A DNA stretch of 36,943 bases from an uncultured Gammaproteobacteria bacterium (GCA_964498735.1 CAZCHJ010000002.1:1-36943); one strand, 5' to 3'. Positions 1,424 through 36,129 are shown, numbered from the stretch's first letter. Notes: generated by a model not told the origin, from the letters alone. Numbers and translations are program-made.

Positions 1424-1452
1424 TTGCTTTTATCTTGCGATTTTTCTATACT
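1424..1452 (+). promoter_or_regulatory. sigma70-type promoter TTGCTT-17 nt-TATACT
   Basis: -35 at 1424-1429 and -10 at 1447-1452. Only 6 nt separate the -10 from the ATG at 1459, which predicts a leaderless transcript. Confidence 0.5.
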
Positions 1453-1458
1453 GTTTAC

Positions 1459-1677
1459 ATGGCAAAAAGAGAACTAACTTCAAAGGAAAGAGAGGCTCTT
1501 GCCGAAAAGCTCGATCGATTAGTAGCTCCGGCAAGATCAAAAAAGATCTTTCGCTCGTGCTACGGATTGAATGACGGAATCTCGAAAAGCAACGCCGAAG
1601 TCGGGAAGCGATTCAAGATCACCGGCGAAGCGGTTCGTCAGACGGTCGCAAAGATCGAGGTGCTATTGCAAAAATAA
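1459..1677 (+). CDS. Free-standing sigma70 region 4 (4.2 HTH)-like protein, 72 aa
   Basis: RSCYGLNDGISKSNAEVGKRFKITGEAVRQTVAKIEVLL parallels RpoD region 4.2 [39 protein letters not shown] (recalled from memory). No region 2 or 3 is present. Confidence 0.55.
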   Translation: MAKRELTSKEREALAEKLDRLVAPARSKKIFRSCYGLNDGISKSNAEVGKRFKITGEAVRQTVAKIEVLLQK

Positions 1678-1728
1678 TTGTCGGGTATATGCCACCTTAC
1701 GGCTAGATTCAACGCGAACAAAATCAGT

Positions 1729-33000: not shown

Positions 33001-36000
33001 AGAAGTAACCGATCAGCTTTGGGCGCTCTCGAAGTATTGGAAGCCGATCGATGAATCGACGGCTTCGAAGTCGTTCCTCTCATATCGAAAGAGCGCGGCC
33101 GAAGTGTATGCGGATTTCATATCCGTCATGTTCAACAATCCGAAGCTTGCCGGTGAAATGGCGCCGACGGCTTACAACATTTTCTTCGAACAGCTTGACG
33201 CAAAACCGAAAGTGAAGGCCGCGTATTTCGAGCTTCAGGATTTTCTTCGTAATGGAGAAAAAGTCGCACAGTCTCGAAAAGACAAAACGCAAAATATGTT
33301 CGTGCAAGCTGATCAGATCTCGAAAGATCGTCAGCACCAACTTGAGATTGAAAATGAGCAAAAGAAAAAGAGCCTTTGGTTTCTCTTCAAGTTTCAGAAT
33401 GTTTCTCGTTTTGAATCATTCCGTGAGAAGGTAAAAGCTCTTGAGAAGAAGGGTGTGTATGTAAATCCGGACGATAATCCGGTGTACTTCCTTGAAGAAT
33501 CAAACTATATCGGCGGAAAAATAAAAGCGGAAGTCGATACTCGTTTCAACACGATCTATCAGGAATTGCAGAATAATGGCCTCACTTGGGACGATCTCGG
33601 TGAGATCACTTTCTACGAGCGTATTCTCAAGGGAGATCGCGCCGAGGTTGCAAACCCTGAAGGTCTTCAGATCGATTTCGTTCAAGAACTTTATGACGGC
33701 TTCGAAGGTGTTGCTCCGGATCCGACAAACAGCAAAAAAGGAACGGTCTCAATGCGTGCTCAACTTGGAGACGAGAAGTTCGCAAAGCTTCAGGCTCTCG
33801 CGGTGCAGTACCGACAACAGATCAAGGATCTTTACAAAGAAGCTTATGACGCCGGTCTTCTTCCGACGGCGACGTGGGATATGATCGAAAAGAATGACTA
33901 CTATGTGCCATTCAAGCCGATCAAATACGGAGGTACAAAGACGAACTACCGAATCAAACAGCAAAAGGGTACTCTTTCGGCTATTGAAAATCCGGCAAAC
34001 ACCGGAATCGAAAAGTCAGTTTCGCTCATTCGTGCAGTCGAAAAAAATAAAGTAAACAAAGCTTCGATTGATTTCCTCAAGGCTCACTATCCGGAGGAAC
34101 TTCAGGAAGCGAAGTATGCTTTCAACGGTAAGACACGAATTGCGCTTGAGCCTCTCGATAAAGATATGCGCCTTGTTCGCTATATGGAAGACGGAAAAAT
34201 GAAAGCGTACTACGTCGATAAGTACATCGGCGAAGCGCTTCAGAAAACTCCAGTAGGACATTCAAACTTGATCATTCAAGGTCTCCGCTTTATGAACTCG
34301 ACACTTTTCCGTCCGCTCTTCATCACATTCAACACCGGATTCCAGAGCTTCAACCTTGTTCGCGACGCGCTCCGTTTTTGGAAGAACGTTCCGGATATGA
34401 CATTGATCAAAACGATCAAGCTTTACGCAAAATCAGCACGCGCCGCAAAGGTGCGAGCTTTTGGCATTTCGGAAAATGCTTCAGTAAAGGATCGTGCCGC
34501 ATACGATCTCATAAACAAGCTCGAAGAAGATCGCGTTCTTTCGATCACATATAACGATATGATCAAGGGCGAAGACGTCGAAGACAAGCAGATCGATCGA
34601 ATCATGCGCGAGACAGGCGTGCGCGAAGCACAATCGACAAAGCTCGGCCGTCTCGGCGAAAAGTTCGGAATCACAAAGAAAACGCCGGTGATCAAGCAGA
34701 TCATCGGGATCATGGACTTCATCGAGAAAACCGGAAACCTGATCGAATCAATGCCGAAGATCGCCGGATATTACGCTCTCGAAGGAAAGCTTCCTCCGGC
34801 AGAAATGCGATCATACGTTCGCCGCAAAGTGGGATCTCCGGACTTCCTCGACGGTGGAAAGTTCAAGCCGGTGATCAATGAAGTCTTCCTCTTCTCAAAC
34901 GCGATTTTTCAAGGTATTCGTTCCGATTACGAAGTAGCAACAGATCCGAAAACTCGATCCGGTTATTGGTGGAAAACAGCACAGGCGAATATTGTTCCGA
35001 AGATTCTTATGACTATGGCGGCGGCCGGTCTCTTCGGCGATGAGCTTGAAAAGCTTTTTGGAAAAGTCAGCGAGTACGACAAGACAAACTATACCGTTGT
35101 TCCTCTCGGCACAGATCAAAACGGAAAGGCCGTGTATATCCGAATCCCTTCCGACGAAACCGGCCGCTTGATCTCCGGTCTCTTTTGGAAGATCTCACAG
35201 GCCGCACAGGATCCAAAGAAACTTGCGGACGCGGACACTTACACGAACATTCTCGCGTATGCCGGAGGACAGGCTCCGAGTATCTCTCCTTCAGTAACGG
35301 CGATCTACAACGTCGGAACATTCCTCTCCGGACAAAATCCGTATGACTTCTTTCGTGGTCGCAATGTTCTCACCGATGAGCAAATGACGGCCGGAGGCGC
35401 TGAAAAGTGGAAGCCTTTCCTTTCGTATATGTTCGACAACCTCGGTGGTGCAACATTCACGAAGCTTTACACAAACGAAACGGTGCCAAAGAATCCGACA
35501 CTTTCGGAGCGTGTCGTTGCATTGCCGGTTGTTTCAAATGTGCTTGGCCGTTGGCTCAAGGTTTCCGATTACGGAGAAACAGAGAAGCTCAAAGAGATCA
35601 CCGGAGAGGTGGATAAAAAGAAAGCGAAAGAAGCTCTCGAAAATCGCCGTACAGTCTTCGACGCAGTAGACGCGGCACAGGGTAAGAGCTACGCTGAAGC
35701 GAACAAGATCAAGCACGATATGATCAAGGCCGTTGTCGGAATCCCGAATACACCGGAAAAGCGTGCGCTCGCACAGAGCCTCGCGAATCGATTCGACAAG
35801 CTTCGAGTACGCGGATCCGCAGATCGAAACGTGGACGCATTGATCACCGCGCAATCGAATGAAGCGAAGGTTGCTCTTCTCAAAGAGTTCGAAAAGAACA
35901 TGAGCACTCAAGACTTCGCGGATCTCAAGAAGTTCATCATTAAAAATCACGTTGTCTCGTCGGCCGCGTATCAACAGTTCCTTCGGGAAAAATCAAAAAA

Positions 36001-36004
36001 ATAA
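30098..36004 (+). CDS. Giant polyvalent (probably virion-delivered) protein, 1968 aa: Gly-zipper membrane segments, zeta-toxin-like P-loop kinase domain, HExxH zincin domain, about 1000-aa uncharacterised C-terminal half
   Basis: Gly-zipper segments GALAGAFGG and GIIGGIVGGVLGG. P-loop VILTGGGAGAGKTE (nt 31766-31792) sits in a zeta-like context (YVIGADDLKDHF...). Zincin motif MAHEIGHLIDY (HEIGH at nt 32867-32881). Confidence 0.65.
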   Translation: MSAYDQFLKETTPSGGTPKVVPPSVGSQSQPPTPPTSASSKFSSETSTITPTPVKTPSAQPTSAYDRYMQETSGTPAVVTPPVATPKASFIDRVNEKGQRLGGSLDAGVLEGVSGIVKGFQWAGGALAGAFGGNKITAKASQEALQQKINDQTKLLDFIKEQKKIGTPEAINKANHAQKTLDIITKELSNNTAQDFPMSMDFIAGTPKITKTADKIQAWADAVKKSNNITPENQTFAEKAFEGVGSSIPYYLPAIGIARGASVLANVSPRVAMLFGGSASAALESMGEAGQVYETVKKEKGIDAARDASTKTFWANALLLSLTENLGVFNPEVKGVLKKALISMPIEGFQESVQQVIQNVNSGRPIWEGVKEAGIIGGIVGGVLGGTTDLVAPNENPEVPPVKIPDGERVSQETPATGSAFEKFQNETKGIDLTRPAAEIQSQIEEAARKGAAEAVAAQDKSSKADQGKAAETTQKASTANIERPATSKEAADRYFKDVLKNSLEGNAYVIGADDLKDHFGGDYADARHTEIYSKATFDLYKKGLKLNKGDKVILTGGGAGAGKTELVTSGLIAGGFDGVLYDSNLSSIQGAKNAIAEARKAGKDVEIYGVLPNLEKARGFTISRENRTGRGISDETFARGHSGFPAVVRQLIEEKIINPDNVHLLDTRNINTFEEAFDMVANQHYVKDPLATVKSLGYTKEDLQKNYAKEHYDTKTAERRSAVPSGEGSRGTPSQDRANQENANGGGNESVLGKNKSEKIKEAEEVLKNQIGDIFKIVEPVGNLWKSKGNVLFISLKTEKTGFAAWLRQKNFIVSAQEAGNNIFKVEVKVPEKTPTNGIVGASIGKFREEGGGDIKLGNFEQIKPIEFPELLSFAKDLSGSEVFIKNYKSANGMFYGADARIGLNPDLFKAGNIQQLQKTMAHEIGHLIDYLPEKTLARGNVLGRLAVLRDFHKDFYAKAGASRTNKEVTDQLWALSKYWKPIDESTASKSFLSYRKSAAEVYADFISVMFNNPKLAGEMAPTAYNIFFEQLDAKPKVKAAYFELQDFLRNGEKVAQSRKDKTQNMFVQADQISKDRQHQLEIENEQKKKSLWFLFKFQNVSRFESFREKVKALEKKGVYVNPDDNPVYFLEESNYIGGKIKAEVDTRFNTIYQELQNNGLTWDDLGEITFYERILKGDRAEVANPEGLQIDFVQELYDGFEGVAPDPTNSKKGTVSMRAQLGDEKFAKLQALAVQYRQQIKDLYKEAYDAGLLPTATWDMIEKNDYYVPFKPIKYGGTKTNYRIKQQKGTLSAIENPANTGIEKSVSLIRAVEKNKVNKASIDFLKAHYPEELQEAKYAFNGKTRIALEPLDKDMRLVRYMEDGKMKAYYVDKYIGEALQKTPVGHSNLIIQGLRFMNSTLFRPLFITFNTGFQSFNLVRDALRFWKNVPDMTLIKTIKLYAKSARAAKVRAFGISENASVKDRAAYDLINKLEEDRVLSITYNDMIKGEDVEDKQIDRIMRETGVREAQSTKLGRLGEKFGITKKTPVIKQIIGIMDFIEKTGNLIESMPKIAGYYALEGKLPPAEMRSYVRRKVGSPDFLDGGKFKPVINEVFLFSNAIFQGIRSDYEVATDPKTRSGYWWKTAQANIVPKILMTMAAAGLFGDELEKLFGKVSEYDKTNYTVVPLGTDQNGKAVYIRIPSDETGRLISGLFWKISQAAQDPKKLADADTYTNILAYAGGQAPSISPSVTAIYNVGTFLSGQNPYDFFRGRNVLTDEQMTAGGAEKWKPFLSYMFDNLGGATFTKLYTNETVPKNPTLSERVVALPVVSNVLGRWLKVSDYGETEKLKEITGEVDKKKAKEALENRRTVFDAVDAAQGKSYAEANKIKHDMIKAVVGIPNTPEKRALAQSLANRFDKLRVRGSADRNVDALITAQSNEAKVALLKEFEKNMSTQDFADLKKFIIKNHVVSSAAYQQFLREKSKK

Positions 36005-36129
36005 TGAAACGTCATGTTATAATGCAATATGCAAAAGAGATCTTTCAATTATTTTGTTTCTTGATTATTTTTGCGTCGATTTTTATTCCTCACTCACTTT
36101 CGTTCTGGTCTCCGAACGATAGTCTATAA
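36004..36129 (+). CDS. Possible small membrane protein (41 aa), not in the ORF track
   Basis: My own translation: MKRHVIMQYAKEIFQLFCFLIIFASIFIPHSLSFWSPNDSL. TAATG overlap with the giant gene's stop. One TM helix. Confidence 0.3.
   Translation: MKRHVIMQYAKEIFQLFCFLIIFASIFIPHSLSFWSPNDSL
36015..36023 (+). promoter_or_regulatory. Extended -10 element TGTTATAAT
   Basis: Consensus TGnTATAAT at the start of the lysis region. It lies inside the tentative 41-aa ORF. Confidence 0.35.

What the first reader, a model, noticed from the sequence alone, without database searches (positions are those of the whole stretch)
1424..36023. Family of TGnTATAAT extended -10 promoters placed 6-11 nt from start codons (leaderless or near-leaderless mRNAs)
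I read seven TGn-extended -10 elements: TGGTAAAAT 7254, TGCTATAAT 8865, TGGTATAAT 11060, TGGTATACT 16363, TGGTATAAT 18846, TGGTACAAT 27887 and TGTTATAAT 36015. There is also the -35/-10 promoter at 1424-1452. The gap between the -10 hexamer and the next ATG is 6 nt at 1459, 7 nt at 8881, 10 nt at 11079, 11 nt at 18866 and 11 nt at 27907. Transcription usually starts about 7 nt downstream of the -10. These five genes would therefore be translated from mRNAs with a 0-5 nt leader, which leaves no room for a Shine-Dalgarno sequence. Five of the elements share the longer core TGGTA.
Basis: partly seen in the sequence, partly recalled or inferred. Interest (0 to 1): 0.6.

Follow-up and report, generated by a model that had tools for sequence, protein, structure and literature searches.

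The report
Host-type promoters abutting phage start codons
A roughly 37-kb phage of an ultra-small (CPR/Patescibacteria-like) bacterium carries eight conserved promoter boxes, five of them so close to a start codon that the mRNA should have almost no leader; this is a well-supported example of a known mechanism in a little-studied host group.

Summary
The boxes are not chance. TGnTA[ACT]A[AC]T occurs 12 times on the gene strand (1.7 expected) and once on the other strand. Seven of the 12 touch the 5% of positions that are non-coding (P=6e-7).

In about 15 related phage contigs the boxes recur at orthologous gene junctions, 84 on the gene strand against 12 opposite. The distance to the ATG clusters at 6-16 nt. 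In 26 of 27 short-gap sites the 7th base after the hexamer is A, usually preceded by a pyrimidine, which is the known start-site signature. Predicted leaders in the window are 0, 1, 4, 5 and 5 nt.

The boxes lack a -35. The putative host (the bulk of the same ~1-Mb MAG) uses TnTGnTATACT promoters, keeps the sigma residues that read TG, and shows no Shine-Dalgarno enrichment. The phage also almost never uses Shine-Dalgarno, so "no room for SD" is true but not distinctive.

No start sites could be mapped. This is a new member of a known kind. The scan has already noted promoter-abutting starts in other phages and in one CPR genome.

The parts
1409..1417 (+). TTTTCCACA, a DnaA-box-like upstream element 6 nt before the -35 of P1424. 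G1 and G2 have TTATCCACA at the same place.
1424..1452 (+). P1424: -35-like TTGCTT (1424-1429), 17-nt spacer, -10 TATACT (1447-1452). It has no TG. CAT is centred on position 7, so the predicted start is the A of ATG 1459, giving a 0-nt leader.
   Evidence: conserved as TTGCAA-17-TATTAT-6-ATG in G2 and TTGCTT-17-TATGAT-7-ATG in G1 (read by eye)
1459..1677 (+). 72-aa protein that matches only region 4 of primary sigma factors.
   Evidence: 43 PDB hits, all primary sigma region 4, best E=3.6e-5; Pfam Sigma70_r4, 19.1 bits, below the 24.1-bit cut-off
7216..7224 (+). TTATCCACA box, 29 nt upstream of the TG of P7254.
7254..7262 (+). P7254 TGGTAAAAT. It lies 46 nt before ATG 7309, so it is not leaderless.
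   Evidence: a box is present before the orthologue in G1, G2, L005, L021, L027 and L034, with gaps of 21-46 nt
8865..8873 (+). P8865 TGCTATAAT. It lies 7 nt before ATG 8881. The predicted start is A8880, giving a 1-nt leader.
   Evidence: no orthologue was found in relatives
8881..9159 (+). 92-aa ORF of unknown function. Its start codon is not confirmed by homologues.
11060..11068 (+). P11060 TGGTATAAT, overlapping the stop codon of the upstream gene. It lies 10 nt before ATG 11079. The predicted start is A11075, giving the leader AUCA.
   Evidence: a box precedes the orthologue in G1 (gap 7), G2 (10), L021 (14), L027 (6) and L034 (6), and is absent in L005
11079..11540 (+). 153-aa ORF of unknown function.
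16333..16341 (-). TTATCCACA box in inverted orientation, 21 nt upstream of P16363.
16363..16371 (+). P16363 TGGTATACT, the host-type hexamer. CAT is centred on position 7. The predicted leader to ATG 16409 is 31 nt.
   Evidence: a box precedes the orthologue (or the portal gene) in G1, G2, L004, L005, L020, L036 and L059
18846..18854 (+). P18846 TGGTATAAT, sitting in the 21-nt gap between the portal stop and ATG 18866. The predicted start is A18861, giving the leader AUCGA.
   Evidence: all 11 distinct close relatives carry a -10 box here, and relatives with 62% portal identity or less carry none
18866..19222 (+). 118-aa ORF, the first gene after the portal, followed by the scaffold and capsid genes.
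27887..27895 (+). P27887 TGGTACAAT, in a 24-nt gap. The predicted start is A27902, giving the leader AUCGA before ATG 27907.
   Evidence: 6 of 6 orthologous junctions carry a TGn box, with gaps of 10-27 nt
27907..28638 (+). 243-aa ORF that heads the block holding the LysM/transglycosylase gene and the 1968-aa gene.
36015..36023 (+). P36015 TGTTATAAT, after the 1968-aa gene. The ATG 5 nt downstream opens only 11 codons. The next real ORF starts at 36139, so the leader is about 110 nt.

Best explanation
The boxes are -35-independent, TGn-extended -10 promoters read by the host's primary-sigma RNA polymerase. They divide a one-strand phage genome into nested transcription units, for example boosting the genes after the portal and the ejection-protein block. 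Transcription most likely starts at the A that lies 7 nt after the hexamer, usually within C-A-T. That gives mRNAs whose AUG is at the 5' end or within 5 nt of it for five genes: 0 nt (1459), 1 nt (8881), 4 nt (11079), 5 nt (18866) and 5 nt (27907). Three other promoters have ordinary leaders of about 31, 40 and 110 nt. Translation then starts without a Shine-Dalgarno sequence, as it does for almost every gene of this phage and of its putative CPR host. For the 0-1 nt cases, direct recognition of a 5'-terminal AUG is inferred. Shown here: the motif, its strand and position bias, its conservation, the absence of a -35, and the match to host promoter grammar. Inferred: the start sites and the mode of translation initiation.
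For: Enrichment and bias in the window: 12 + hits against 1.73 expected, 1 - hit, and 7 of 12 in the 5% of positions that touch non-coding DNA. Relatives: strict TGNTATAAT is 6:1, 8:0 and 5:1 on the gene strand against the opposite strand in three related contigs, with 0 hits for the reversed-pattern control. The looser pattern is 84:12 over about 250 kb of the close clade, with gaps to the ATG clustering at 6-7, 10-11 and 13-16 nt. At the portal junction, 11 of 11 distinct close relatives have a -10 box with gaps of 6-15 nt, while more distant relatives have directly coupled genes and no box. Orthologous boxes also precede the homologues of 1459, 7309, 11079, 16409 and 27907. Start-site signature: A at the 7th base in 26 of 27 short-gap sites. 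YR at positions 6-7 in 18 of 26 sites, and CAT or CAA there in 6 of 8 window sites. This matches the YRY start element, which co-localises with the start site in 93% of cases when centred 7 bp after the -10 (PMC12641261). Absence of a -35: 0 of 62 phage boxes have a 5/6 or better TTGACA match at 16-18 nt, against 11 of 83 host boxes. The standard -35/-10 scan is not enriched. Host fit: the bulk MAG has 85 TGnTATACT boxes, and 12 of them lie 6-10 nt before an ATG. Host RpoD keeps IRIPVHMVETINR, which holds the H and E that contact the TG in E. coli sigma70 region 3.0 (plus own knowledge of Barne et al. 1997). The host shows no SD enrichment (8.2% against 8.0% in the control region). All five genes start with ATG.
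Against: The 7-nt rule comes from other bacteria. The gap at orthologous sites varies from 6 to 27 nt, so exact leaderlessness is not conserved. No plus-strand terminators were found in the gaps, so read-through polycistronic mRNAs probably also carry these genes. Leaders of 4-5 nt are not strictly leaderless, and in E. coli even a few extra 5' nucleotides reduce 70S binding (own knowledge). Assignment of the window to the bulk MAG as host rests on binning and shared grammar. Its GC content is 0.478 against about 0.40 for the bulk.
Confidence: 0.7

Rival explanations
1. The boxes are real promoters, but their closeness to the ATG is only a by-product of genome compaction. The five genes would be translated mainly from longer read-through polycistronic mRNAs, using the same SD-less internal initiation as every other gene. 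The short-leader transcripts would be minor or poorly translated.
For: All genes lie on one strand and no plus-strand intrinsic terminators were found in the gaps. Only 4 of 52 genes have an SD-like 5-mer, so internal SD-less initiation is the norm here. The gap length drifts between 6 and 27 nt at orthologous sites. Distant relatives express the post-portal gene by direct coupling without any box.
Against: In the phage clade, 27 of the 60 boxes that have a downstream ORF lie 6-16 nt from the ATG. In the host, 12 of the 66 such boxes lie 6-10 nt from the ATG. Short gaps are therefore favoured in the phage. The A at position 7 is kept in 26 of 27 sites, and three phages place it exactly on the A of the ATG at the portal junction.
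Confidence: 0.17
2. The boxes are used only after phage modification of the host polymerase. For example, the free-standing sigma region-4 protein (1459-1677) could block -35 recognition, or a factor could bind the TTATCCACA boxes. The boxes would then be a phage-specific middle/late promoter class rather than ordinary host promoters.
For: Phage boxes differ from host boxes in three ways: TATAAT rather than TATACT, an A-rich stretch with A/G before the TG instead of the host's T at that position, and no -35. The only -35-type promoter in the window drives a sigma region-4-like protein. TTATCCACA boxes sit 21-31 nt upstream of several promoters.
Against: Many host TGnTATACT promoters also lack a good -35, so a decoy would not separate phage from host cleanly. 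TATCCACA boxes also occur upstream of host promoters. The match to sigma region 4 is weak in Pfam, below the cut-off. Nothing here was tested biochemically.
Confidence: 0.1
3. The conserved 9-mer acts in the RNA, as a Shine-Dalgarno substitute, a translation enhancer or an RNA processing site, rather than as a DNA promoter.
For: The box lies at an SD-like distance of 6-15 nt from many ATGs in a genome without SD. Two independent assemblies have contigs that begin at 18844, just before the box.
Against: The same box also occurs 21-46 nt and about 110 nt from starts. Only a minority of genes have it. It is identical to the sigma70 extended -10 consensus, including the TG spacing, and it is followed by the position-7 start-site signature. 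Nothing complementary to UAUAAU is visible in the 16S 3' end read. The shared contig end is more simply an assembly branch point.
Confidence: 0.03

Closest known systems
Extended -10 (TGn) sigma70/sigmaA promoters, including the TRTGnTATAAT '-16 region' promoters of Firmicutes
   Same: The TG sits one base before a near-consensus -10. No usable -35 is present. The host sigma keeps the region 3.0 H and E residues. The start-site signature lies 7 nt downstream.
   Different: The setting is a CPR-type host and its phage. The phage version has an A-rich stretch with A/G before the TG instead of the T seen in the host and in Firmicutes. No transcription data exist.
Leaderless mRNAs: lambda cI from PRM, and the leaderless transcriptomes of Mycobacterium, Streptomyces and Deinococcus (GeneMarkS-2 'group C' genomes, with a -10 box about 6-10 nt before the start)
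   Same: The -10 hexamer lies 6-11 nt upstream of an ATG. All five genes use an AUG start and have no SD. By the operational cut-offs in use (5 nt or less, or under 10 nt as in PMC8244752) all five would be called leaderless.
   Different: Only two of the five are predicted to begin at or 1 nt before the AUG. The whole genome is SD-less, so leaderlessness does not stand against an SD-led background. Start sites are unmapped.
Phage promoter families that abut start codons, noted earlier in this scan (e1-2904311, e1-3294917, e1-3438119, e1-3272472), and the general remark that phage transcripts are often leaderless (PMC5312081)
   Same: An oriented, conserved promoter motif sits at gene junctions and places the start at or next to the ATG.
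   Different: Those cases use phage-specific or sigma-54 motifs whose reader is often unknown. Here the motif is the ordinary host primary-sigma extended -10.
T4 AsiA-type sigma region 4 interference, which spares extended -10 promoters
   Same: The phage combines -35-less extended -10 promoters with a small early protein related to sigma region 4. That protein could in principle disturb -35 recognition.
   Different: AsiA binds region 4 and is not a region 4 homologue. No interaction or effect has been shown here. This is an analogy only.

Membership tests
Extended -10 sigma70-type promoter | -10 hexamer close to TATAAT | tested here: met
   The hexamers are TATAAT (4 sites), TATACT (2), TACAAT (1) and TAAAAT (1).
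Extended -10 sigma70-type promoter | TG dinucleotide one base upstream of the hexamer | tested here: met
   Seven of the eight window sites have it; P1424 has a -35 instead. It is kept in most orthologous sites, though a few have TGTATAAT or no TG.
Extended -10 sigma70-type promoter | A weak or absent -35 is tolerated | tested here: met
   Of 62 clade boxes, 0 reach a 5/6 match to TTGACA at 16-18 nt, against 1 in the shifted control. The standard scan finds only 7254.
Extended -10 sigma70-type promoter | A host primary sigma with the region 3.0 residues that contact the TG (E. coli H455 and E458) | tested here: met
   The RpoD fragment of the bulk MAG reads IRIPVHMVETINR. Residue roles are from own knowledge. 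The host assignment is inferred.
Extended -10 sigma70-type promoter | Transcription demonstrably starts 6-8 nt downstream of the hexamer | not testable with these tools
The only indirect support is A at position 7 in 26 of 27 sites.
Leaderless mRNA | The 5' end of the transcript coincides with the start codon (operationally, a leader of 5 nt or less) | tested here: inconclusive
   The geometry predicts leaders of 0, 1, 4, 5 and 5 nt. No start-site data exist.
Leaderless mRNA | AUG start codon | tested here: met
   All five genes start with ATG.
Leaderless mRNA | No Shine-Dalgarno sequence upstream of the start | tested here: met
   This is met but not discriminating. Only 4 of 52 genes in the window have an SD-like 5-mer.
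Leaderless mRNA | Translation initiation by 70S or 5'-AUG recognition | not testable with these tools
   This needs toeprinting or reporter assays.

The most novel reading that the evidence does not exclude
The promoters would be one part of a coordinated take-over of initiation in a CPR host. An early, -35-dependent, strictly leaderless promoter makes a free sigma region-4 mimic that cripples -35-dependent host transcription. The -35-less phage boxes then dominate. DnaA-box-like TTATCCACA sites would tie some promoters to the replication state.
Probability: 0.1. Interest if true: 0.7.

Novelty: new member of a known kind. Interest (0 to 1): 0.4.

Why it matters
Gene-expression signals of CPR/Patescibacteria and their phages are almost undescribed. 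The papers I could search hold no promoter or leader analysis for CPR phages. This locus gives a concrete, testable promoter grammar for such a phage (TGnTATAAT-N5-CAT). It also gives one for its putative host: TnTGnTATACT promoters, no SD enrichment, and U at -1 of the start codon. The grammar helps in calling starts and operons in these genomes. It also offers a natural set of transcripts with 0-, 1-, 4- and 5-nt leaders for studying SD-independent initiation. The mechanism itself is textbook, so the value is descriptive rather than conceptual.

Tried and rejected
1. Megablast of 12 kb of the window against GenBank phages found no match. Protein-level capsid hits were all distant, below 40% identity.
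I did not use read laying with run ids obtained by other routes.
3. The standard -35/-10 and terminator scans were not enriched. They recovered only 7254 and showed no plus-strand terminators in the gaps.
4. An unsupervised training set built from any TAnAnT near a start codon in AT-rich relatives was too noisy to make a PWM, so I used fixed patterns with Markov and strand controls instead.
5. More distant relatives do not share the motif (L014-L017 and loci with 54% portal identity or less). One lineage, G004, uses TGATATATTc instead.
6. I searched for CRISPR spacers or other exact short matches between the window and the rest of the MAG. None were found; the only hits were two diverged phage fragments, on contigs C55 and C46.
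7. Literature searches on leaderless mRNAs or SD usage in CPR found nothing specific. The N. lyticus start-site paper (PMID 35975994) is not held.
8. The RNA-level rival (an SD substitute) was rejected on spacing and sequence grounds.
9. Chance was rejected on the statistics.

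
Full report
**What the window is.** The 36,943-base window is a whole contig (C2) of a 986-kb, 95-contig MAG. All plausible genes lie on the + strand. They encode:
- a replication initiator, a DnaC-like loader, a Sak4-like annealase, an exonuclease, SSB and NinB;
- a large terminase, an SU10-type portal, a major capsid protein, tail-fibre-like proteins, a LysM/transglycosylase protein and a 1968-aa protein with a zeta-toxin-like domain.

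It also holds one tRNA-Met(CAU) and an IF-1 homologue (Pfam eIF-1a, 48.6 bits against a 30.2-bit cut-off). No phage RNA polymerase was seen, so transcription must rely on the host enzyme. Related IMG/VR contigs of 34.6 and 35.8 kb are rated 100% complete. They are circularly permuted relative to the window, so the window is probably a nearly complete phage genome.

**Check of the observation.** Every box is at the stated position with the stated sequence. The gaps to the ATG are 6, 7, 10, 11 and 11 nt. Homologues in relatives begin at the same ATG for 1459, 11079, 18866 and 27907. Public gene calls on identical contigs use the same starts for 11079, 18866 and 27907. Only the 8881 start lacks such support.

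Statistics for the window:
- Strict TGNTATAAT: 4 on +, 0 on -.
- TGNTA[ACT]A[AC]T: 12 on + against 1.73 expected under a second-order Markov model (maximum 7 in 300 simulations), and 1 on - against 1.98 expected.
- Seven of the 12 + hits touch non-coding DNA, which makes up 5.2% of positions (binomial P=6.3e-7).
- The five intragenic hits include 3487, TGG-TAC-AAT, in the exonuclease gene. The matching site in G2 reads TGGTATAAT. Both would encode Trp-Tyr-Asn if TGG is a codon (frame not checked), so coding constraint may explain it.

**Comparative evidence.** A portal search found four close and four distant viral contigs, five MAG contigs and 49 metagenome loci.
- In three related contigs, strict TGNTATAAT is 6:1, 8:0 and 5:1 in favour of the gene strand, with no hit for the reversed-pattern control.
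- Over about 250 kb of the close clade the looser pattern is 84 on the gene strand against 12 opposite. Distances to the next ATG that opens at least 50 codons cluster at 6-7 nt (9 sites), 10-11 nt (9) and 13-16 nt (9).
- At the portal junction, all 11 distinct members of the close clade (portal identity 64% or more) carry a -10 box in the tiny gap between the portal stop and the next ATG. The gaps are 6, 6, 6, 10, 10, 11, 11, 11, 11, 14 and 15 nt. Relatives with 62% identity or less have no box and couple the two genes directly (TAAnATG, TAATG, ATGA).
- Orthologous boxes also precede the homologues of 27907 (6 of 6, gaps 10-27), 16409 or the portal (all close relatives, leaders 15-43), 7309 (leaders 21-46), 11079 (6 of 7, gaps 6-14) and 1459 (-35, 17 nt, -10, then 6-7 nt to the ATG, in all three genomes that hold it).

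The positions are conserved while the flanking sequence and GC content (0.33-0.49) diverge. That is the mark of a functional element.

**Where transcription should start.** In 26 of the 27 short-gap sites (gap 6-16) the 7th base after the hexamer is A. In 18 of 26 non-duplicate sites the 6th base is a pyrimidine, and 14 of the 26 are YRY. In the window, positions 6-8 read CAT at five of the eight promoters and CAA at a sixth. A recent survey of 49 species describes this "start element": a YRY motif centred 7 bp after the -10 co-localised with the start site in 93% of cases (PMC12641261).

The predicted starts are 1459 (the A of the ATG), 8880, 11075, 18861 and 27902. The leaders are therefore 0, 1, 4 (AUCA), 5 (AUCGA) and 5 (AUCGA) nt. 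At the portal junction, three relatives place the A of the ATG exactly at position 7. The other three window promoters have ordinary leaders of about 40 nt (7254), 31 nt (16363) and about 110 nt (36015). The ATG 5 nt after the 36015 box opens only 11 codons (read).

**Promoter class.** None of the 62 clade boxes has a 5/6 or better match to TTGACA at 16-18 nt, against 1 in the shifted control. The standard -35/-10 scan is not enriched and recovers only 7254. These are therefore -35-independent extended -10 promoters. P1424 is the exception: it has a conserved TTGC-type -35 and no TG. The scan also found no plus-strand intrinsic terminators in the gaps, so the units are probably nested, with read-through from upstream.

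**Host link.**
- The bulk of the MAG (GC about 0.40) has standard code usage, a 16S with a normal CCUCC tail, no detectable L30 (with the caveat of 88% completeness), and an S1 protein with four S1 domains.
Phage relatives sit in a Candidatus Parcubacteria MAG and in other unnamed MAGs.
- Its genes show no SD enrichment (8.2% against 8.0% in a control region) and T at -1 in 72% of cases.
- Its dominant promoter box is TnTGnTATACT: 85 copies against 54 for the reversed control, mostly in obvious intergenic settings. Eleven of 83 have a 5/6 or better -35 match.
- Twelve of the 85 lie 6-10 nt before an ATG that opens at least 60 codons, with a peak at 9-10 nt. Most of the rest have 14-36 nt leaders.
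- Its RpoD fragment keeps IRIPVHMVETINR, which holds the His and Glu that read the TG in E. coli sigma70 (plus own knowledge).
- Two bulk-GC contigs (C55, C46) carry diverged terminase, portal and capsid fragments of a related phage.
- Phage early genes favour T at -1 (16 of 34), like the host. Late genes have A at -1 in 17 of 18 and G at -2 in 11 of 18.

Together these make the bulk organism, or a close relative, the likely host, and the host holoenzyme the likely reader of the boxes. The window's higher GC content (0.478) leaves some doubt.

Only 4 of 52 genes in the window have an SD-like 5-mer. The lack of room for an SD therefore does not set the five genes apart. What does set them apart is the promoter itself. 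Promoter-abutting starts are more frequent in the phage clade (27 of 60 boxes with a downstream ORF lie 6-16 nt away) than in the host (12 of 66 lie 6-10 nt away).

**Mechanism and rivals.** My best reading (about 0.7) is host-type extended -10 promoters giving leaders of 0-5 nt, with SD-independent translation.
- The main rival (0.17) accepts the promoters but holds that read-through polycistronic mRNAs do most of the translating and that the proximity is a by-product of compaction. The drifting gap length (6-27 nt) and the absence of terminators support it. The preference for short gaps and the conserved A at position 7 argue against it.
- A refinement (0.1) is that the phage boxes form a distinct class used after polymerase modification. 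They differ from host boxes in having TATAAT rather than TATACT, an A-rich stretch upstream, and no -35. The only -35-type promoter drives a 72-aa protein that matches only region 4 of primary sigma factors (43 PDB hits, best E=3.6e-5; below the Pfam cut-off).
- An RNA-level role (0.03) is unlikely, because the same box also occurs 21-110 nt from starts and matches the DNA consensus exactly.

**Novelty.** Extended -10 promoters and leaderless mRNAs are textbook. One paper I read remarks that phage transcripts are often leaderless (PMC5312081). This scan has already noted promoter-abutting starts in several other phages and in one CPR genome. What is new is the setting, a CPR-associated phage clade and its host, for which I found no published promoter or leader analysis.

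Noticed in passing
window 1409-1417, 7216-7224, 16333-16341 (-); G1, G2, L005 and L004 upstream of orthologous promoters; host contigs C28, C51, C35, C85 and C7: The exact DnaA-box consensus TTATCCACA, or a close variant, lies about 21-31 nt upstream of the TG of several phage promoters and of at least five host TGnTATACT promoters. It could be a shared upstream regulatory site. DnaA or another factor might bind it; this is untested.
   Followed up: partly
window 19795-19830, upstream of the scaffold-like gene at 19838: A conserved hairpin, GCCaaaCCCTTG...CAAGGacGGC, lies about 10 nt before the ATG. The outer GCC/GGC stem and the AAA and AC bulges are kept in G2, L004 and even the distant G4. 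The inner stem co-varies (CCACG/CGTG, CCCC/GGG). It may be a translational operator. RNAalifold recovered only the outer three pairs.
   Followed up: partly
window, all start codons; bulk MAG genes: Start-codon context is split. Late genes have A at -1 (17 of 18), G at -2 (11 of 18) and often GCA as the second codon. Early genes favour T at -1 (16 of 34), like the host (72% T). Neither host nor phage uses Shine-Dalgarno, although the 16S keeps CCUCC.
   Followed up: partly
window 14442-14642 and 12535-12606: The phage encodes an IF-1 homologue (Pfam eIF-1a, 48.6 bits) directly upstream of a 51-aa ORF and the terminase gene. It also encodes a tRNA-Met(CAU). Both may bear on SD-less or short-leader initiation.
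   Followed up: partly
window 1459-1677: A 72-aa protein matches only region 4 of primary sigma factors (PDB 4g6d_A, E=3.6e-5). It is expressed from the only -35-type promoter in the window, which is predicted to be strictly leaderless.
   Followed up: partly
window 18844; loci L070 and L071: Contigs from two independent assemblies (a MEGAHIT k141 contig and a SPAdes NODE contig) both begin at exactly base 18844, the last base of the portal stop codon just before the promoter box. This suggests a sharp strain-variation or recombination boundary at this junction.
   Followed up: no
bulk MAG contigs (for example C9 19457, C29 6856, C35 7042, C42 5751, C49 862 and 1317, C52 428): The host promoter consensus is TnTGnTATACT, with 85 copies. 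Twelve lie 6-10 nt before an ATG, so the host itself has a class of near-leaderless genes.
   Followed up: partly
G004 (L013 + L007), a distant relative: This lineage uses a different repeated box, TGATATATTc. Ten copies lie on the gene strand, some 5-10 nt from an ATG and others 22-38 nt away.
   Followed up: no
window 113-165 and the orthologous regions in G1 and G2: A long inverted repeat with a conserved loop (CTCACAAG) lies upstream of the replication-initiator gene, and its stem sequence differs in each phage. It could be an operator, an origin element or an RNA hairpin.
   Followed up: no
MAG contigs C4, C22, C24, C41, C68 and others (GC 0.6-0.75); C55 and C46: The MAG contains high-GC contigs that are probably contaminants from another organism. 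It also contains two bulk-GC contigs with fragments of a second, related phage.
   Followed up: no
window 7263-7270 and the leaders of 7309 orthologues: The P7254 leader begins with TAGGAGGT in the window, and AAGGT is conserved in relatives, but no start codon follows at SD distance. The role of this leader element is unknown.
   Followed up: no
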